Shown: in pieces, positions 5,230 to 42,400 of the stretch
Layout of the letters: each line of letters opens with the position of its first letter
Position numbering within the stretch: the first letter of the stretch is position 1
DNA from: an uncultured Candidatus Saccharibacteria bacterium
GTDB lineage: Bacteria > Patescibacteriota > Minisyncoccia > Phycocordibacterales > CALRHW01
Direction: 5' to 3'
DNA length: 64,000 nucleotides
Assembly (NCBI GenBank): GCA_964407105.1
Contig: CAYOUG010000002.1
Location: 11,041 to 75,040 of the forward strand
Made by a program: the position numbers and the translations under genes
Notes under the pieces: generated by a model
Seen by the model: the letters and a program-made list of their open reading frames with translations, nothing else
Databases searched by the model: none
What the model was told of the DNA's origin: nothing

Positions 5230-5337
5230 AAAACCAAAAACCATCTTTGGAAAACCACGCATAAATCGCTGCTGCGATTTTGCTACGCTCGGCCCGTCGG
5301 CCTGCGCGATGCTTTTCCAAAGATGGTTTTTGGTTTT
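5230..5337 (+). repeat. copy 1 of a conserved 58-nt GC-rich core (5255-5312) inside a perfect 25-bp AT-rich inverted repeat
   Basis: The arms are AAAACCAAAAACCATCTTTGGAAAA and TTTTCCAAAGATGGTTTTTGGTTTT. The core is CCACGCATAAATCGCTGCTGCGATTTTGCTACGCTCGGCCCGTCGGCCTGCGCGATGC. The core is repeated at 34218-34275 (minus) and 36819-36876. Confidence 0.9.
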
Positions 5338-27996: not shown

Positions 27997-28091
27997 AATG
28001 ATTGACAATATACTGTCGCATATGTTTTAATTTAAAAAGAGTGGGAATGGATTGTTTCCAATCCCATCTATTTTGCAAAAGGAGTAGATTC

Positions 28092-28571
28092 ATGTTCTCT
28101 CACAAGTTTTCTCGAATCGTGTCTCTGCTCGCATTGGTGGCTATTTTCTGTGCCAATGTCTTTAGTTGCTCAAAGGATCCAACCGCCGGGACGACGGCGG
28201 TATCACATTCTCCAAATCCACAACCTAGAATTGGGGGGTGGGCCTTCCAAGGACAACTTCCAATGAAGGTCGATATCAATTCTGCATATTTGCAGATTGT
28301 GCCGATGAGAGTTCTGAAAGTTGACAGAGTGATTGGCGTGGCTGACGTTGAACTTCCAAACGGAAACACCCTCTTCATGGACAATCCATATGTGGTTGCA
28401 CTAGAGGCGGGTACGTATTTCAGGTTTCTTCCAAATCACACCCCACAGTCTGTTTTGGTGCACTTGACCTTACCAAACTGGCAAGACCGTGATCAGATGG
28501 TGGAGGTGCTAGAATTGGCTGACATCGATTTCAGTAAAACCAACTATTACGATGACGCTGTCGGTCCTTAG
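28092..28571 (+). CDS. GC-rich secreted/lipoprotein of unknown function (paralog of 37468-37965)
   Basis: AAGGAG sits 8 nt upstream of the ATG. The signal peptide with lipobox-like VFSC|S is followed by a Thr/Pro linker and a conserved domain (..SAY..ELPNG..TYFRF..VEVL..IDF.K.NYYDD). Confidence 0.6.
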   Translation: MFSHKFSRIVSLLALVAIFCANVFSCSKDPTAGTTAVSHSPNPQPRIGGWAFQGQLPMKVDINSAYLQIVPMRVLKVDRVIGVADVELPNGNTLFMDNPYVVALEAGTYFRFLPNHTPQSVLVHLTLPNWQDRDQMVEVLELADIDFSKTNYYDDAVGP

Positions 28572-28677
28572 CTGGGTCGTCGGTTTCTCATTCTGGTGGT
28601 ACGGTCCATCATATAGCGCGTGACCTCTTTTGGGGTCGCGCGCTTTTTATTATTATTTTTTTGTTATACTTAAACAT

Positions 28678-28878
28678 ATGGATCAAGATATAAAAGATAA
28701 AATTGACGCACAAGATGCGAAACTAAATTTGATTTTAAAATCAGTAGAAAAAACGCGAAAATATTTTGTATGGATTTTTTGGATAACAATTATTGCTGTG
28801 GTTTTACCAATTATCGGACTAGCTTTTGCAATTCCTTCTTTTTTAGATACTTATGTAAAAACTTTGGGTAGTTTTTAA
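28678..28878 (+). CDS. small membrane protein (66 aa, one transmembrane helix)
   Basis: MDQDIKDKIDAQDAKLNLILKSVEKTRKYFVWIFWITIIAVVLPIIGLAFAIPSF. Confidence 0.4.
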   Translation: MDQDIKDKIDAQDAKLNLILKSVEKTRKYFVWIFWITIIAVVLPIIGLAFAIPSFLDTYVKTLGSF

Positions 28879-28901
28879 AATAAATTATTATTTTGTTACA
28901 T

Positions 28902-28957
28902 AAAAAAAGAGCCGAGAGGTCGTCGTAAGACGGCCACTCGGCTCTGAGCGTTTTTTT
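28902..28957. terminator. bidirectional terminator: A-run, GAGCCGAG, 20-nt loop, CTCGGCTC, T-run
   Basis: A perfect 8-bp GC-rich stem is flanked by an A7 run upstream and a T7 run downstream, between convergent genes. Confidence 0.6.
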
Positions 28958-28968
28958 GTTGCTTCAAA

Positions 28969-29598
28969 TCAAGAGCAAATTATTTCAAACAATTCGGTGA
29001 CGTGCTTAAACGCCTCACGTATCACCGTGTCTGAAATGAAGTAACCCATCTGCATCTCTTGTGCCGTCATTCTGAAAAGATCTTCCATTGCGTCATTTGT
29101 CACACTGATTGGCGACCCATCAAGTGTGTCCAGGTGTTGACCAGCAAGCCAAAAGTTGAGTGTTTGTGCCAAAACCTCCAAAGCTGTAAGTAGCGTGATT
29201 CCAGTTAGACCACCACGTTCACGATTTTCAGCACGTAATTTGTCCACAAAAACATCAGAGAACTTCTTTAACCTTTTTTCGAACCCATCTGGTTTCGTTC
29301 CCCCACGTGTCAGTGTGGAATTTTCTATGAACGATCTAAGTGTTCTTATGTTACTTCTTTCTGTTTCAGCAAAAACCTCCACACATTCACGCGCCAAAGG
29401 ATGTCTTACCCATGATTGTGTCTGCGATATCCAATCTTTCATTTGGACTTTGTGGACAGTATTCCAACGCGCAAGAATTGTTGGTAGATCTACCCGAGAA
29501 TTCTTCAGAGTTTCTCGGGTCCGGTCCATGAACGGCATTACGTGTGCCAAGATGTTTTGTTGAAAAGGATAGGTTGGGGTTTTGGTCGATATGCTCAC
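28969..29598 (-). CDS. GC-rich hypothetical all-alpha protein
   Basis: The product is 209 aa from a GTG preceded by GGAG. The composition is helical. An R-x4-H (RWNTVH) motif is noted, but no confident family was found. Confidence 0.45.
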   Translation of the reverse strand: MSISTKTPTYPFQQNILAHVMPFMDRTRETLKNSRVDLPTILARWNTVHKVQMKDWISQTQSWVRHPLARECVEVFAETERSNIRTLRSFIENSTLTRGGTKPDGFEKRLKKFSDVFVDKLRAENRERGGLTGITLLTALEVLAQTLNFWLAGQHLDTLDGSPISVTNDAMEDLFRMTAQEMQMGYFISDTVIREAFKHVTELFEIICS

Positions 29599-29753
29599 TT
29601 TTTTCTCCAATCAAGAAAGGGGATGAAAGACAATGACACAGCAGACAGTATTCCATTTTCGATAGTATAGGAAAAAATACATTTTCACAATATCAAAGTA
29701 TCTATTGTATTTTTTCTGGAATTGTATATAATCTTTTTCATATGGTTGTACGA

Positions 29754-34171: not shown

Positions 34172-34200
34172 AAACTTTTAGAAAAGTCTAAAAACAAAAT

Positions 34201-34292
34201 AAAAAAGCTTTTGAAAAGCATCGCGCAGGCCGACGGGCCGAGCGTAGCAAAAAGCCAGCAGGCTTTTATGCGTGGTTTTCAAAAGCTTTTTT
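34201..34292 (-). repeat. copy 2 (reverse orientation) of the conserved 58-nt core (34218-34275), flanked by a perfect 17-bp AT-rich inverted repeat
   Basis: The arms are AAAAAAGCTTTTGAAAA and TTTTCAAAAGCTTTTTT. The core on the minus strand is CCACGCATAAAAGCCTGCTGGCTTTTTGCTACGCTCGGCCCGTCGGCCTGCGCGATGC. Confidence 0.9.
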
Positions 34293-34317
34293 ATTTTGTT
34301 TTTTTACTTTCCTTTCT

Positions 34318-36394: not shown

Positions 36395-36796
36395 ATGTTA
36401 AAAATTCGATTACAACGAGTAGGACGCAAGCACGAACCCACATTTCGTCTTGTTCTTACCGACTCAAAAAACAGTCCAAAAAGTGGACGAACACTTGAAA
36501 CTCTTGGTGCATATGATTCTCGTCGAGGAGACAAAGCAGAATTTAAAAATGATCGAATAAAATATTGGATAACTCAGGGAGCACAACTTTCTGGAACGAT
36601 TCACAATCTTCTTGTTGATCGAAAGGTGATTGAGGGAAAGAAAGTAAACGTACTTCCAAAAAAGAAACCTATTGTAAAAGAGGGTACTGAAGCTCCAGTA
36701 GCATCGGCTCAGACAGAAACACCAGCTCAGGTGACGGAAACGGCACCAGTTGAAACTTCAGCTCCAGAAGTTGTTGCAGAAACTCCTGCGGCTTAA
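36395..36796 (+). CDS. rpsP: 30S ribosomal protein S16 with Ala/Pro/Thr/Glu-rich C-terminal extension
   Basis: MLKIRLQRVGRKHEPTFRLVLTDSKNSPKSGRTLETLGAYD is canonical bS16. Confidence 0.9.
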   Translation: MLKIRLQRVGRKHEPTFRLVLTDSKNSPKSGRTLETLGAYDSRRGDKAEFKNDRIKYWITQGAQLSGTIHNLLVDRKVIEGKKVNVLPKKKPIVKEGTEAPVASAQTETPAQVTETAPVETSAPEVVAETPAA

Positions 36797-36800
36797 AAAT

Positions 36801-36894
36801 AAAAGTGTTTTTCAAAAACCACGCATAAATCCCTGCTGGTATTTTGCTACGCTCGGCCCGTCGGCCTGCGCGATGCTTTTTGAAAAACACTTTT
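36801..36894 (+). repeat. copy 3 of the conserved 58-nt core (36819-36876), flanked by a perfect 18-bp AT-rich inverted repeat
   Basis: The arms are AAAAGTGTTTTTCAAAAA and TTTTTGAAAAACACTTTT. The core is CCACGCATAAATCCCTGCTGGTATTTTGCTACGCTCGGCCCGTCGGCCTGCGCGATGC. It begins 5 nt after the rpsP stop codon. Confidence 0.9.
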
Positions 36895-37074
36895 ATTTTT
36901 TCACCGATCACAGTGCGTGGTTTTTGAAAGACACTTTTATTTTTTTGTCTCTCTGTGGTGTGGGTAACTTCGTTGACCACGATTTCTTGTGTTGTAAAAT
37001 TAAGTGAGCAGTAAAAAGTTTTCATACTGCACGGAAGTTATACCTTTATTATTTATAGAAAGTAGTACATTTAT

Positions 37075-37386
37075 ATGGAACAAGACGCACAGTTTTTGGA
37101 GTATGTGGTAAAAGCTTTGGTAGATAATCCAAACGACGTAAAGATCAAGCGAACGGTAGATGAAATGGGTGTGCTTATGAATCTTGATGTGAACCCCGCA
37201 GATATGGGAAAGATTATTGGCCGAGAAGGAAATACTGCAAAGGCGATTCGAACATTGCTCCGAGTGGTAGGAATGAAAAATAATGCTCGTGTAAATTTAA
37301 AAATTAACGAACCTGAAGGCGGTATGCGAAGTGAATCAAAAGTAACGAAAACGGTAGACGAGGCGATGGAGGATTTGAAAATATAA
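37075..37386 (+). CDS. KH-domain RNA-binding protein (YlqC/UPF0109 family)
   Basis: The GxxG loop is KIIGREGNTAKAIRTLL. The gene holds the conserved position after rpsP. Confidence 0.75.
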   Translation: MEQDAQFLEYVVKALVDNPNDVKIKRTVDEMGVLMNLDVNPADMGKIIGREGNTAKAIRTLLRVVGMKNNARVNLKINEPEGGMRSESKVTKTVDEAMEDLKI

Positions 37387-37403: not shown

Positions 37404-37448
37404 AAAAAACAACACGTGGTCCGCTTGGACTGCGTGTTGTTTGGTTTT
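37404..37448. terminator. bidirectional AT-rich hairpin terminator
   Basis: AAAAAACAACACG, 16-nt loop, CGTGTTGTTTGGTTTT, between convergent genes. Confidence 0.55.
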
Positions 37449-37467: not shown

Positions 37468-37965
37468 CTACTGTTGTCCACCGAACGGATCGGTGTAGTA
37501 GATCTTGTCGAAGTCGATCTCGTATGGCTTGAGCACTTCGACAAGAGGATCCTCGTGCATTCGTGGCGGATCGTACCGTGCCTTGAAGCGAAAGAACGTA
37601 CCCGGTTTCATCTTTACCACATCTTTGTGGTTTGTCATGAATCCGGTACCGTCTGGCAGTGCTACCAGTGCCACCGCCGTATCGTAGTTCACGATCTCCA
37701 CAAACATCACCTTGAGGGGGATCCCTGAATAGATGTAGGCGGAGTCGATACCGATCGGATTGATCACACCATTACTAAACGCTTTGGTGTTGGTGTACAT
37801 TCCACTGTACCTGGGCCCAACAGAATTCTCAGTTGTTGTTGGGCTCGACGAATTGCCGTTAGACTTTTCGTCACCCCAATTGGTATAAACAGAAAGCCGA
37901 TAACGCAGATAACGAGAAACGGTCCATACATCCAAGTCCATTCTCGTGCACGTGTCTTATCCATG
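37468..37965 (-). pseudogene. frameshifted paralog of the secreted protein at 28092-28571
   Basis: AGGAG is followed by an ATG at 37965 and a signal-anchor (MDKTRAREWTWMYGPFLVICVIGFLFIPIG) in one frame, 37965-37764. The conserved domain (GIDSAYIYSGIPLKV..ALPDGTGFM..TFFRFKARYD..VEVLKPYEIDFDKIYYTD) is in another frame, 37941-37468. The frames switch near the homopolymers TTTT/CCCC at 37864-37877. Confidence 0.55.
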
Positions 37966-38127
37966 GCCAGTCTCCTAAAAAGATCCTTTTTCCTCAGCTC
38001 AACGATTGAGCTTTCTACATATATGTAATCACATCTAACACATTTTGTCAAATATTCGTAATACCCCAATAATTTGAAATTACGCAGTATTATTGTCAAA
38101 TAAGGCATTTTATGGTTTAATCACCAT

Positions 38128-38832
38128 ATGAATTTTCACATCATCACTTTATTTCCCGACGCGTTTAGCTCGTATCTTAGCGAGTCTATTATTAAGCGTG
38201 CGATAGAAGACAAGAAAATAAAGGTAAAATTATACAACCCACGTGACTACACGGATGATAAATGGAAACGTATTGATCAAAAACCGTACGGTGGTGGCCC
38301 GGGTATGGTGATTCAAGCCTTGCCGGTAATAAAAGCGATTGAAAAAGCAATTGGTAAAAAAGGCGCAAAAACGAACACTAAAAAAGATATCGCTATTACG
38401 GCTAGCGCAAAGTCTCGCGTCAAAAAATTCAAAATTATTTTTCTTTCTCCGAGCGGCACACAATTTACAAACGACTACGCAAAAACCACAGCAAAAAAAT
38501 ATACAGACATCATTATTGTTTCTGGTCGTTATGAGGGTATCGACGCGCGCATTAAAAAGATTTTCAAAATGGAAGATATTTCTGTGGGGCCATTTGTGCT
38601 TACGGGTGGTGAGCTTCCGGCTATGATCATAATCGACTGCATTGCACGACAAATAAAAGGCGTGCTTGGCGATTTTAATTCTCTTGAAGAATCTCGCGTA
38701 TCAAGCCCAGATGTATATACTCGACCCGAAGTGCTTGCGTATAAAGGCAAAAACTATCGGGTACCAAAAGTACTTCTTTCAGGTAATCATGCGAAAATTG
38801 ACGAATGGAGACAGGGGAGAAAGGAAAAATAG
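38128..38832 (+). CDS. trmD: tRNA (guanine37-N1)-methyltransferase
   Basis: HIITLFPDAF...KPYGGGPGMV...VSGRYEGIDARI. It carries a Lys-rich internal insertion. Confidence 0.9.
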   Translation: MNFHIITLFPDAFSSYLSESIIKRAIEDKKIKVKLYNPRDYTDDKWKRIDQKPYGGGPGMVIQALPVIKAIEKAIGKKGAKTNTKKDIAITASAKSRVKKFKIIFLSPSGTQFTNDYAKTTAKKYTDIIIVSGRYEGIDARIKKIFKMEDISVGPFVLTGGELPAMIIIDCIARQIKGVLGDFNSLEESRVSSPDVYTRPEVLAYKGKNYRVPKVLLSGNHAKIDEWRQGRKEK

Positions 38833-38934
38833 ATTTTTTATATAAACTCGATTTATTTTGTTGACATAGTTCTGGTATGAGCATATCCTTTTTAAGGACA
38901 CCGGAACACAAGATCCAATCCAGAAGGAGAAACA

Positions 38935-39234
38935 GTGGCAAAATTTAGATTGTTTTGGAATGATGGACGTATCGATGATGTTGACGGAGAAGATTTCAGA
39001 GATGCCTGTGCTCGAATGAACAGGCCGGTCGAGTTTTTTTTCGATCTTGATTACTACTTCAGAGAGGAAGATGGAATCAAAGTCCAAGTCGCTTGTCGTG
39101 CTTGTTGTGGTTGTCCATGTGATCCACGAAAAGTTACGGCGTGTGTGCACGACCTAGGACGAGTCTTTACTGAAGCATTTTTTGATGAAGTGTCGCTGAT
39201 AGTTGTTCCCATTGGATACGATGCTGGTATCTGA
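38935..39234 (+). CDS. GC-rich hypothetical Cys-rich protein (99 aa, GTG start)
   Basis: AAGGAG sits 5 nt upstream of the GTG. A Cys cluster, CRACCGCPCDPRKVTAC, is present. A TTGACA box lies at 38863. Confidence 0.4.
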   Translation: MAKFRLFWNDGRIDDVDGEDFRDACARMNRPVEFFFDLDYYFREEDGIKVQVACRACCGCPCDPRKVTACVHDLGRVFTEAFFDEVSLIVVPIGYDAGI

Positions 39235-39263
39235 TGGGAATTTTTTTTATACACACCCGATTA

Positions 39264-39292
39264 TTGACAAAAAAACAGCACTGTCCTATACT
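39264..39292 (+). promoter_or_regulatory. strong sigma70 consensus promoter (TTGACA, 17-nt spacer, TATACT) upstream of rpoB
   Basis: TTGACA at 39264-39269 and TATACT at 39287-39292 with a 17-nt spacer. A roughly 190-nt leader containing a small hairpin and T-run (39405-39440) follows. Confidence 0.55.
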
Positions 39293-39480
39293 GTAATTCC
39301 TTATTGCACAAGATTGAGTTGTGGATAGAATGCAATGGTTTAGTAATTGTATCTCAAGCACATCTTGCCTACATACAATATATAAAGCGAGTTTCGCCAC
39401 ATAGACACCTTGAAGAGAGGTGCCTTTTGGCTTTTTATTAGTTTGGGAAATTTCATTAATAACGTCTAAACAACGAACGT

Positions 39481-42400
39481 ATGTCACCACAAACACACGC
39501 GGAGGGAAAGTCCCTTCGAGAGAAAAAGTATTTCGGTCGCTTTAAAAAACCACTCGCTGAGTTGCCAAATTTGGTAGAGTCTCAAATAACCTCGTTTACA
39601 TGGCTTATAGAAAAAGGTCTTAAAGAAGTTTTTGATGAATTTTCTTCAATCAAAGATTATTCTGAAAAAAAGTTTCAGCTAGATTTTACTGGTTTTGAAT
39701 TAAGTCAGCCAAAGTATGACGAGTATTACGCAAAAGATCAGAAAATGTCGTATGAAGCACCACTTAAAGTAAAGGTGCGACTCACGAATCAGATTTTAAA
39801 AACAGTAAAAGAACAGGAAATTTTTCTCGCAGATTTTCCTCTAATGACAAATCACGGTACTTTTATCGTGAGTGGTATTGAGCGTGTAATTGTGCCTCAG
39901 CTCGCTCGATCTTTCGGTGTGTTTTTTACTTCTCAAGAAGTAAAAGGTAAAACTTTGTTTGGTGCAAAAATCATTCCATCTCGTGGTGCATGGATTGAAA
40001 TTGAAACCGATGCAGACAACGTGCTTTATGTGCGTGTAGACAAAAAACGAAAATTTCCTATAACATCTCTTCTTCGTGTGCTTGGTGCGGCTACAGATAA
40101 GGATATTTTGGCGCTTGCGAAAGGTAATGAATTTGCAAAAACTTATCTTGAAAAATCTCTTGCCAAAGACCATGCAAAAACTCTCGACGAAGCGTATGTG
40201 GAGATTTATAAAAAACTTCGTGACGGTGATCTTGCGGCGGTAGAAAATGCAAAAGAATTTGTACTCTCTATTTTTAGTGAAGAAAGATATGATCTTTCTC
40301 GTGTTGGACGTTTTCGATTCAATCAACGTTTCGAAAGATCTCTTGCCGAAAAAGATTTAGAAAAAAAGATAATTACTCTTGCCGATGTAGAAATAATTCT
40401 TTCTCATATTGTTACGTTAAATAACACACCAAACGCTCTTCCAGATGATATCGACCATCTTGGTTCACGACGTGTGCGTTATGTGGGTGAACTTTTTCAG
40501 CAAAAAATTCGCATGGGTATGGCGCAGATAAAACGCAACATTCAAAACAGAATGTCTACGGTGGATACTGACGTTACACTTCCAGTGCAATTTATTAGTC
40601 CAAAGCCACTCCAAGCTCGTATCAAAGAATTTTTTACAACAAATCAGCTTTCTCAGTTTATGCAACAAACAAATGCACTCGAAGAACTCGAACATTTGCG
40701 AACACTTTCTGCTCTTGGTCCTGGAGGTCTAAATCGAGCACGCGCTGGATTTGAAGTGCGTGACGTTCACACATCTCATTATGGCCGACTTTGTCCGATT
40801 CATACACCAGAAGGTCCAAACATCGGTCTTATTTTACGTCTCGGTCTTTATGCTCGTATCAACGAATTTGGAATGATTGAAACTCCATATGCAAAAGTAA
40901 AAAATGGAAAAGTAACCGAAGAAATTGTCTATATGAATGCTCTTGAAGAGGAGTTGTACAAGATAGCACATGCGGCTACAGCTATAGATGAAAATGGAAA
41001 AATTCTTGGTGACAACGTAGAGGTGCGAATTAAGGGAAAACCAGGACTTATCACAAAAGATCAAGTTGATTTTATTGATGTTTCTACAAGTCAGGCTTTT
41101 TCTGTAGCCACTTCAATGATCCCATTTCTTAATCATGATGATGCAAACCGAGCACTTATGGGATCAAATATGCAAAAACAAGCAACTCCTTGTATCGTTC
41201 CAGAAGCTCCTTTTGTGGCAACAGGTATTGAAAATAGAGCGGTGATGGACACCGGAAGACTTGTACTTGCTGAAGAGTCTGGAACAGTAGTATCTTCTGA
41301 TGCAAAGAAAATTGTAGTAAAAAATGAAAAAGGAAAAGAAAAAGAGTATAAGCTTGTAAATTTCTCAAGAACAAACGGTTTTACTGCATTTTATCAACGA
41401 CCGAGTGTAACTGTGGGAGATAAAATAAAAAAAGGACAAGTAATTGCGGACAATTCTTCAAGTGATCGCGGACAAATGGCACTCGGACAAAATATTCTCG
41501 TGGCATTTATGTCGTGGTCTGGATCAAATTATGAAGACGCTATCATTGTGTCAGAACGACTTGTAAAAGAAAGTAAATTCTCATCTATTCATATTGAAGA
41601 ATTTGTGGTAAATGTGCGCGACACAAAACTTGGACCAGAAGTAACCACGTGTGATATTCCAAACGTTGGTGAAGCAAAATTAAAAAATCTTGCCGAAGAT
41701 GGAATTATTCGTATCGGTGCAGAAGTACGATCAGGAGATATTTTAGTTGGAAAAATTACCCCAAAAGGAGAAACTCAGCTTACACCAGAAGAACGTCTCC
41801 TTCGTTCACTCTTTGGTGAAAAAGCCCGCGATGTAAAAGACACATCAAAACGAATGGAGGGTGGAAAAAGAGGCCGTGTTATAAACGTGCAAGTATTCTC
41901 ACGAGAAAAGGGAGACAAGCTTGAATCTGGAATCATTAAGCGAATTCATATCGAGGTTGCTCAACTTCGAACGGTATCTGTGGGCGACAAACTTGCTGGA
42001 CGTCACGGAAACAAAGGTGTTATTTCAAGAATTCTTCCTGAAGAAGATATGCCGTACATGGTTGATGGAACTCCGATAGATATTATTTTGACACCACTTG
42101 GAGTGCCATCTCGTATGAATCTTGGACAAATTCTTGAGCTTCATCTTGGACTAGCAGCCAACACCCTTGGTTATCAAGCTATTGTTCCTTCTTTTGCTGG
42201 AGCAACAGATAAAGAAATAAAAGAGGAACTTGTAAAAGCAGGATTTAATACAAACGGTAAAATGAAACTTTTTGATGGACGCACAGGTGTTGCGTTTGAT
42301 CAAGAAATCGCCGTGGGATACATGTATATTATGAAGCTTCATCACATGGTGGAAGATAAAATTCATATGCGTTCTATTGGTCCTTATTCTCTTATTACAC

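What the first reader, a model, noticed from the sequence alone, without database searches (positions are those of the whole stretch)
37468..37965. A frameshifted secreted-protein paralog lies inside the rpsP-KH-trmD operon where rimM is missing; its intact paralog is at 28092-28571
The conserved operon is rpsP-KH-rimM-trmD. Here rimM is absent, and between the KH protein and trmD there is a convergent GC-rich gene. Its N-terminal signal-anchor, preceded by an AGGAG RBS with the ATG at 37965, is in one reading frame (37965-37764). Its conserved domain, shared with the lipoprotein at 28092-28571 (SAY, [EA]LP[ND]G, T[YF]FRF, VEVL, IDF.K..Y.D), is in the -1 frame (37941-37468). The frames switch near TTTT/CCCC homopolymers at 37864-37877. 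This is either a recent pseudogene, a sequencing error at a homopolymer, or slipped-strand phase variation of a surface protein.
Basis: seen in the sequence. Interest (0 to 1): 0.5.

Follow-up and report, generated by a model that had tools for sequence, protein, structure and literature searches.

The report
Frameshifted accessory membrane-protein gene, CPR bacterium
A small strain-variable gene for a membrane-anchored protein, inserted between khpA and trmD in a Patescibacteria (CPR) genome, is broken by a one-base frameshift and is most likely a young pseudogene; the missing rimM is normal for this lineage, so the finding is real but ordinary.

Summary
On the minus strand, AGGAG-N7-ATG opens a 66-codon frame that encodes a transmembrane helix. 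The conserved domain lies in the -1 frame (37941-37468). It is homologous to the intact gene at 28092-28571 (E 3e-12).

Sister strains show the ancestral state and parallel decay. Two assemblies carry an intact 163-aa single-frame allele. One carries only a 56-codon 3' remnant. One is identical to the window but probably comes from the same sample.

One extra base in the G4 or A4 run (37877-37865) restores a 165-aa protein. I found no long repeat tract, no credible slippery site and no frameshift in any homolog. Phase variation and programmed frameshifting are therefore not supported. A recent pseudogene is the best reading (about 0.65), and a read-level indel error remains possible.

The rimM point does not bear on the gene. 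rimM is absent from the khpA-trmD spacer in the 66 related Patescibacteria loci compared, and this absence is published for CPR. That spacer holds a terminator hairpin and often unrelated inserts.

The protein belongs to a very rare, unannotated family with an N-terminal TM helix and a small OB-like beta-barrel. The alleles are unusually divergent (dS about 0.8, against 0.02-0.15 in the flanks).

The parts
37972..37976 (-). Shine-Dalgarno AGGAG, 7 nt upstream of the ancestral start codon
   Evidence: Read in the sequence. The block AGGAGACTGRCCATG is conserved in the intact allele of L002/L003.
37764..37964 (-). Frame A: ATG at 37964, N-terminal transmembrane anchor (aa 14-32), then 35 out-of-frame codons and TGA at 37766-37764
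   Evidence: ORF list and translation. Hydrophobicity of the three frames. Every small family member has an N-terminal TM helix.
37865..37877 (-). Most likely site of the 1-nt loss: G4 run (37877-37874) or A4 run (37868-37865) on the gene strand. Adding one base to either run joins frame A to frame B and gives a 165-aa protein.
   Evidence: Codon reading. Third-position GC switches to frame B from about 37874. The frame-B linker NGNSSSPTTTENSVG resembles the linker of the L002 allele.
37468..37941 (-). Frame B ORF (157 aa). The conserved extracytoplasmic domain starts at TKAFS (about 37791) and runs to the stop at 37470-37468.
   Evidence: BLASTP to the paralog, E 3e-12. dN/dS 0.18 against the L002 allele over 106 codons. 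AF2 pLDDT of 80-92 over most of residues 70-150 (one 10-residue block at 57), a five-strand small beta-barrel.
37788..38068 (-). Hypervariable segment: the 5' ~180 nt of the gene plus its upstream region. blastn cannot align it to the intact allele, although the flanks are 89-98.5% identical.
   Evidence: blastn of L002 against the window; alignment. L002 has a 12/12 sigma-70 consensus promoter here. The scan found no such site upstream of the window allele.
37407..37442 (.). Bidirectional terminator-like hairpin between khpA and the 3' end of the convergent gene (16-bp stem, A-run on one side, T-run on the other)
   Evidence: Inverted repeat I3. RNA fold -26.1 kcal/mol, z -4.7.
28092..28571 (+). 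Intact paralog (159 aa from this ATG; called as 174 aa from ATG 28047 in public data). It has an N-terminal hydrophobic signal with Cys residues and the same domain.
   Evidence: (P0001).
37075..37386 (+). khpA (KH-domain protein), upstream neighbour
   Evidence: Pfam PF13083, E 9e-22.
38128..38832 (+). trmD, downstream neighbour. A -35/-10-like pair (TTGTCA-17-TTTAAT) ends 6 nt before its ATG.
   Evidence: Pfam PF01746, E 1e-36. Upstream sequences of relatives.

Best explanation
This is a young frameshift pseudogene of a species-specific accessory gene. The gene was inserted, convergently, into the khpA-trmD spacer of a Paceibacteria-type Patescibacteria (CPR) genome.

The ancestral gene encoded a protein of about 165 aa: an N-terminal transmembrane anchor, a Ser/Thr/Asn-rich linker, and a small OB-like beta-barrel of about 100 aa that presumably sits outside the membrane.

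In this strain one base was lost in a 4-nt G or A run just after the TM helix (37877-37865). Ribosomes that start at the conserved AGGAG-ATG (37964) now make a 66-aa TM peptide and stop at 37764. The domain is left in the -1 frame without a Shine-Dalgarno sequence or a signal sequence.

Shown here: the two frames, the paralogy, the intact single-frame allele in sister strains, the independent 5' deletion in another strain, and the lineage-wide absence of rimM.

Inferred: that the lesion is a real mutation rather than a read error; that the domain is not expressed; that the domain is extracytoplasmic; and the function of the family, which is unknown but possibly cell-surface interaction.
For: 1. 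Sister-strain assemblies found through the identical KhpA protein. L002 and L003 carry a 163-aa allele with the TM helix and the domain in one frame, behind the same AGGAGACTGRCCATG.
2. L004 keeps only the last 56 codons, after a deletion of about 410 nt (roughly 37643-38051) with AAT microhomology. The gene has therefore been inactivated at least twice.
3. L001, a separate assembly of SRR12487045, is 100% identical to the window over 3148 nt, frameshift included.
4. All small family members found by exhaustive HMMER have an N-terminal TM helix in frame with the domain.
5. The domain ORF has no further stop codon and keeps every invariant family residue. dN/dS against L002 is 0.18. The lesion is therefore recent.
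6. The promoter scan lists no sigma-70-like site upstream of the window allele. The intact allele has a perfect TTGACA-17-TATAAT.
7. The gene is accessory. It is absent from the spacer in the 66 related-species loci that hold both khpA and trmD, and its GC3 of 0.60 contrasts with 0.2-0.37 in host genes.
Against: - Reads could not be inspected. L001 very probably comes from the same sample as the window, so it rules out an assembler-specific artefact but not a systematic read problem.
- There is a single lesion in an otherwise perfect ORF. That is also what a consensus indel error would look like.
- Nothing tested here bears on expression.
- The public gene call is the 157-aa ORF, not a pseudogene.
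Confidence: 0.65

Rival explanations
1. Consensus indel error. The true sequence has G5 or A5 and the gene is intact (165 aa).
For: There is one lesion only, at a short homopolymer. The rest of the ORF and all conserved residues are intact. L001 is probably from the same read set as the window.
Against: Two different assemblies give the same base string over 3148 nt. Long error-free k-mer contigs argue for accurate short reads, in which 4-nt runs are not error-prone; this is my inference. Independent decay of the gene in L004 shows it is dispensable.
Confidence: 0.18
2. Slipped-strand phase variation: a contingency locus that switches a surface protein on and off.
For: The shift lies between the signal anchor and the mature domain of a probable surface protein. 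The locus is hypervariable between strains.
Against: The runs at the site are only 4 nt and the longest run in the gene is 5 nt. TRF finds only a 2.1-copy 9-mer elsewhere. The intact L002 allele has no repeat tract at the homologous place. The other 'off' state (L004) is an irreversible deletion.
Confidence: 0.05
3. Programmed -1 ribosomal frameshift or other recoding that yields the fused protein.
For: The shift needed is -1. One formal X XXY YYZ heptamer (G GGC CCA, 37818-37812) lies in frame A inside the overlap of the two frames.
Against: CCC-type heptamers are not known efficient slippery sites (my own knowledge). One formal match in about 63 codons is expected by chance roughly one time in four. 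The downstream fold is not better than shuffles (z -1.1). A shift there would give a linker unlike those of homologs, and third-position GC says frame B is already the native frame from about 37874. Every homolog is encoded in a single frame.
Confidence: 0.03
4. Functional split: a 66-aa membrane peptide plus a separately translated, now cytoplasmic, 157-aa domain protein.
For: Both ORFs are open. The 157-aa ORF is what public gene callers annotate.
Against: There is no Shine-Dalgarno sequence before ATG 37941. The family always has the TM helix fused to the domain. No other genome shows the split arrangement.
Confidence: 0.05

Closest known systems
Ordinary frameshift pseudogenes of accessory or surface-protein genes in bacteria
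   Same: A single-base indel at a short homopolymer. An intact orthologous allele exists in sister strains. Another strain shows independent deletional decay. The gene is absent from related species.
   Different: The host is a reduced-genome CPR bacterium, and the protein family is unannotated and extremely rare.
Phase-variable contingency loci (homopolymer or short-repeat tracts in 5' coding regions, as in Neisseria, Haemophilus and Campylobacter; my own knowledge)
   Same: The frameshift lies just after the export signal of a probable surface protein. The locus varies strongly between strains.
   Different: There is no long repeat tract (runs of 4 nt), no evidence of length heterogeneity, and the intact allele has no tract.
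The rpsP-rimM-trmD-rplS operon of E. coli and the rpsP-KH-rimM-trmD arrangement of Firmicutes
   Same: rpsP, the KH protein (khpA) and trmD are linked in the same order. The Firmicutes control loci L080, L082 and L084 have RimM directly upstream of trmD.
   Different: rimM is absent here and from the khpA-trmD spacer of the 66 related Patescibacteria loci compared. trmD is followed by rpoB-rpoC rather than rplS. A terminator-like hairpin and promoter-like motifs separate khpA from trmD.
Short NfeD-like proteins (a membrane anchor plus a C-terminal OB-fold barrel)
   Same: The overall architecture is similar: an N-terminal TM segment followed by a small five-strand beta-barrel.

Membership tests
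Frameshift pseudogene | Homologs and orthologous alleles encode the same parts in one uninterrupted frame | tested here: met
   The L002/L003 163-aa allele. Family members P0005-P0010 and the paralog.
Frameshift pseudogene | The lesion is present in the DNA of the organism, not only in the assembly | not testable with these tools
   Only assemblies are available. L001 agrees with the window but is probably from the same sample.
Frameshift pseudogene | Further signs of relaxed constraint (extra stops, lost conserved residues, a degraded promoter) | tested here: inconclusive
   There is no extra stop and all invariant residues are kept. However, the scan found no consensus-like promoter for the window allele, against 12/12 in L002.
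Slipped-strand phase-variable locus | A long homopolymer or short tandem-repeat tract at the switch site | tested here: not met
   Runs of 4 nt at the site and at most 5 nt in the gene. TRF finds only a 2.1-copy 9-mer elsewhere.
Slipped-strand phase-variable locus | Tract-length polymorphism within or between populations | not testable with these tools
   There is no access to reads. The only other copy of this allele (L001) is identical.
Programmed -1 ribosomal frameshift | A canonical slippery heptamer in the zero frame with a downstream stimulatory structure | tested here: not met
   Only G GGC CCA at 37818, which is a non-canonical type. The downstream fold has z -1.1.
Programmed -1 ribosomal frameshift | The frameshift is conserved among homologs | tested here: not met
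   All homologs are encoded in a single frame.
rpsP-KH-rimM-trmD operon | A RimM gene (PF01782 plus PRC barrel) between the KH gene and trmD | tested here: not met
   Pfam on the window genes and on the ORFs in relatives' spacers found none. A RimM HMM built from the control loci found nothing in the 64-kb window or in the fetched Patescibacteria loci. The controls were positive. Published as nearly absent in CPR.
Bacterial lipoprotein (applies to the paralog 28092-28571) | A lipobox [LVI][ASTVI][GAS]C at the end of the signal peptide | tested here: inconclusive
   By eye the sequence is ...ANVFSC-SKD. Positions -1 (S) and -3 (V) fit and -2 (F) does not. No predictor was available.
Pfam / NCBIfam / PHROG families | A significant profile match | tested here: not met
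   No family at E <= 0.01 for either window copy, the L002 allele, P0005 or P0007 in any of the three libraries, nor for P0006, P0009 and P0010 in Pfam.

The most novel reading that the evidence does not exclude
The khpA-trmD insert may be a strain-level hypervariable surface-protein locus of an episymbiotic CPR bacterium. Anciently diverged alleles (dS about 0.8 in the domain, an unalignable 5' end, mosaic recombinants) would be maintained and repeatedly switched off by frameshift or deletion, under pressure from hosts or phages. The elevated GC3 of the whole family would then reflect frequent recombination or horizontal exchange. On this reading the frameshift is one snapshot of an on/off arms-race gene, not plain decay.
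Probability: 0.12. Interest if true: 0.5.

Novelty: new member of a known kind. Interest (0 to 1): 0.2.

Why it matters
The practical value is for annotation. The 157-aa ORF in public records should be read as the 3' part of a disrupted 165-aa membrane-protein gene. The absent rimM should not be taken as an anomaly of this genome.

The finding also documents a very rare, unannotated Patescibacteria protein family (a TM anchor plus a small OB-like barrel) with two copies in one genome. It shows that the khpA-trmD spacer is a recurrent landing site for accessory genes in this lineage.

None of this overturns current understanding.

Tried and rejected
- The word-index homolog search with the frame-restored protein found nothing.
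- The metagenome scan gave one locus, L086. It shares only LPDGTEFM by chance, inside an unrelated ORF. The viral-contig scan found nothing.
- The afdb50 fold library was unavailable. The BFVD fold search gave nothing below E 0.1.
- Three giant Ig-repeat proteins (Big_4, DUF7743) matched the two-sequence profile in many short stretches. I treat this as compositional or beta-strand noise. The window proteins do not match those Pfam families, and the model is a barrel rather than an Ig sandwich.
- NfeD-like membership is rejected: no profile match and no structural match.
- rimM displaced by the insert is rejected: relatives without any insert also lack rimM.
- A mobile-element origin has no support. 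I saw no phage-family match and no duplication next to the gene. The spacers of the closest relatives differ too much to define the insertion borders.
- The sample accessions were not found in the paper library.

Full report
**What is in the sequence**

The window is low-GC DNA (38.5% GC). Pfam confirms rpsP (36398-36796), a KhpA-type KH protein (37075-37386) and trmD (38128-38832), all on the + strand. The 741-nt khpA-trmD spacer carries one convergent minus-strand gene.

AGGAG (37976-37972) is followed after 7 nt by ATG at 37964. This frame A encodes MDKTRAREWTWMYGPFLVICVIGFLFIPIGV... and stops at TGA 37766-37764. Its best 19-residue window has a Kyte-Doolittle mean of 2.32, against 0.99 and 1.53 in the other two frames.

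Frame B is -1 relative to A. It is open from 37956, has an ATG at 37941 and runs to 37468 (157 aa). The gene has 49% GC and GC3 of 0.60. The paralog has GC3 of 0.50, and host genes have 0.2-0.37.

**Where the frames switch**

Frames A and B overlap from 37956 to 37767. The TM helix ends at about 37871. From about 37874 the third-position GC favours frame B (0.57 against 0.30). The frame-B linker NGNSSSPTTTENSVG...TKAFS resembles the linker of the intact sister allele.

One additional G in the G4 run (37877-37874), or one additional A in the A4 run (37868-37865), gives a continuous 165-aa protein.

**Related sequences**

Exact look-ups of the flanking proteins returned four short assemblies of the same species from other read sets.

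- L001 (SRR12487045) is 100% identical to the window over 3148 nt, frameshift included. The contig carrying the paralog comes from the same run, and the 157-aa ORF is recorded from one NCBI contig of 141,748 nt. L001 is therefore probably a re-assembly of the window's own sample. It excludes an assembler artefact but is not an independent population.
- L002 and L003 (DRR783867, DRR783855) carry a 163-aa allele. The TM helix and the domain are in one frame, behind the same AGGAGACTGRCCATG. They have a perfect TTGACA-17-TATAAT promoter. The same scan finds no such site upstream of the window allele.
- L004 (DRR274965) retains only the last 56 codons, after a deletion of about 410 nt with AAT microhomology. 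Its sequence is a mosaic of window-like and L002-like stretches.

The gene has thus been inactivated independently at least twice.

**Allelic divergence**

- Flanking genes differ little between the window and L002: dS is 0.096 for khpA, 0.15 for trmD, 0.037 for rpoB and 0.016 for the 99-aa ORF.
- The domain has dS 0.82 with dN/dS 0.18.
- The 5' ~180 nt of the gene plus about 100 nt upstream (37788-38068) cannot be aligned by blastn.

So this is a real, selected protein-coding gene with unusually old or imported alleles.

**The family**

- No Pfam, NCBIfam or PHROG model matches.
- An exhaustive HMMER search of 1.84 billion representatives with a profile of the two window copies found only 10 proteins at E <= 1e-3.
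  - Two are the window's own paralog (P0001) and the L004 remnant (P0002).
  - Five are small proteins of 154-181 aa (P0005-P0007, P0009, P0010). All have an N-terminal TM helix followed by the same domain. One of them lies in another uncultured-bacterium genome, in an unrelated context.
  - Three are giant Ig-repeat proteins (Big_4, DUF7743), matched in many short stretches. I regard these as noise.
- The three homologous genes examined (L002, L087, L088) are each GC-richer than the rest of their locus.
- An AlphaFold2 model built on a 7-sequence alignment has pLDDT of 80-92 over most of residues 70-150 (one 10-residue block at 57). It shows a five-strand small beta-barrel.

Function therefore remains inferred only. 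It is a membrane-anchored, probably extracytoplasmic small barrel.

**The rimM question**

trmD-based retrieval places the window in the Patescibacteria. The best matches are 77% identical and are labelled Parcubacteria, Paceibacterota, Zambryskibacteria or Taylorbacteria.

- In the 70 loci with both khpA and trmD, the median spacer is 185 nt.
- None of the ORFs in the longer spacers is RimM. They include a GNAT acetyltransferase, a histidine phosphatase, a PD-(D/E)XK nuclease, a HAD hydrolase and hypothetical proteins.
- Firmicutes control loci do show RimM directly upstream of trmD.
- A RimM HMM built from those controls hits nothing in the window or in the fetched Patescibacteria loci.
- Two papers report rimM as missing in most CPR genomes, or nearly absent from them (PMC6744442, PMC12641178).

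The family gene occurs in this spacer only in this species. Spacers longer than 450 nt occur in 23 of the 66 other-species loci. The spacer is therefore a recurrent landing site.

In the window, khpA ends in a strong bidirectional hairpin (37407-37442, -26 kcal/mol, z -4.7). Relatives have comparable hairpins and -10-like motifs just before trmD. The insert therefore does not split a tight operon.

**Mechanism and alternatives**

- **Phase variation** is not supported. The runs are 4 nt, the longest run in the gene is 5 nt, and there is no relevant tandem repeat. The intact allele has no tract, and the second 'off' form is an irreversible deletion.
- **Programmed -1 frameshifting** is not supported.
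  - The only formal heptamer in frame A is G GGC CCA at 37818, which is a non-canonical type.
  - It is expected by chance about one time in four.
  - It lies 50 nt past the native junction.
  - It is followed by no significant structure (z -1.1).
  - No homolog is frameshifted.
- **A consensus indel error** cannot be excluded without reads. It is made less likely by the agreement of the two assemblies.
- **Best reading:** a recent, real one-base deletion that has turned a dispensable, strain-variable accessory gene into a pseudogene (confidence about 0.65).

**Verdict**

The finding is a real feature and was correctly described. It is biologically ordinary, and the rimM angle is a known lineage trait. 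The modest residual interest lies in the rare, unannotated family and in the hypervariability of the locus.

Noticed in passing
window 5230-5337 (+), 34193-34299 (-), 36795-36901 (+, with an extra 3' arm at 36914-36944); also L006 6799-6899, L007 5850-5957, L008 5851-5961, L009 1-89: A palindromic intergenic element of about 108 nt. Much of its roughly 60-nt core (CCACGCATAAA..CTGCTG..TTTTGCTACGCTCGGCCCGTCGGCCTGCGCGATGC) is identical in all three window copies. The core sits inside a ~24-bp outer stem whose sequence differs between copies but stays complementary (folds of -41 to -55 kcal/mol). It is conserved in the closest related species and matches no Rfam family at gathering score. All four Logan contigs L001-L004 break inside it, at window position 36851. 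It could be a structured RNA, or a mobile core that inserts into terminator hairpins.
   Followed up: partly
window 38935-39234 (+): A Cys-rich 99-aa ORF between trmD and rpoB. It was found only in this species (L001, and L002 at 97% identity). It has no Pfam, NCBIfam or PHROG match and is followed by a strong terminator-like hairpin at 39205-39241.
   Followed up: partly
khpA-trmD spacers of L011, L018, L021, L024, L028, L029, L031, L032, L035, L037, L038, L043, L045, L053, L057, L062-L064, L067, L069, L076, L078, L079: In 23 of the 66 related-species loci the khpA-trmD spacer is longer than 450 nt. Where ORFs in it were scanned, they are unrelated genes (GNAT, histidine phosphatase, PD-(D/E)XK nuclease, HAD hydrolase, hypotheticals). 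It looks like an insertion hot spot.
   Followed up: partly
window 38093-38130 and the 50 nt upstream of trmD in L005-L079: In the window and its closest relatives, TGGTTTAAT ends 6 nt before the trmD ATG, which may mean a leaderless transcript. In many other relatives a terminator-like hairpin with TGGTAT(A/T)AT in its loop sits directly before the trmD start.
   Followed up: no
window 38832-39481 and most loci L005-L078: trmD is followed by rpoB-rpoC rather than by rplS, both in the window and in most related loci.
   Followed up: no
window 36398-36796: The rpsP product is 132 aa. Pfam S16 covers only residues 7-65, and the C-terminus is a low-complexity Thr/Ala/Pro/Glu-rich tail.
   Followed up: no
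window 28002-29610: The intact paralog and the neighbouring minus-strand 213-aa ORF (28969-29610, no Pfam match) are both GC-richer (0.47 and 0.43) than the adjacent rnhB (0.31). This may be a small foreign island.
   Followed up: no
L088 5287-5847: Directly upstream of family member P0007 lies a 186-aa ORF that also has a single TM helix followed by a beta-rich region. It may be a distant paralog. This was not tested.
   Followed up: no
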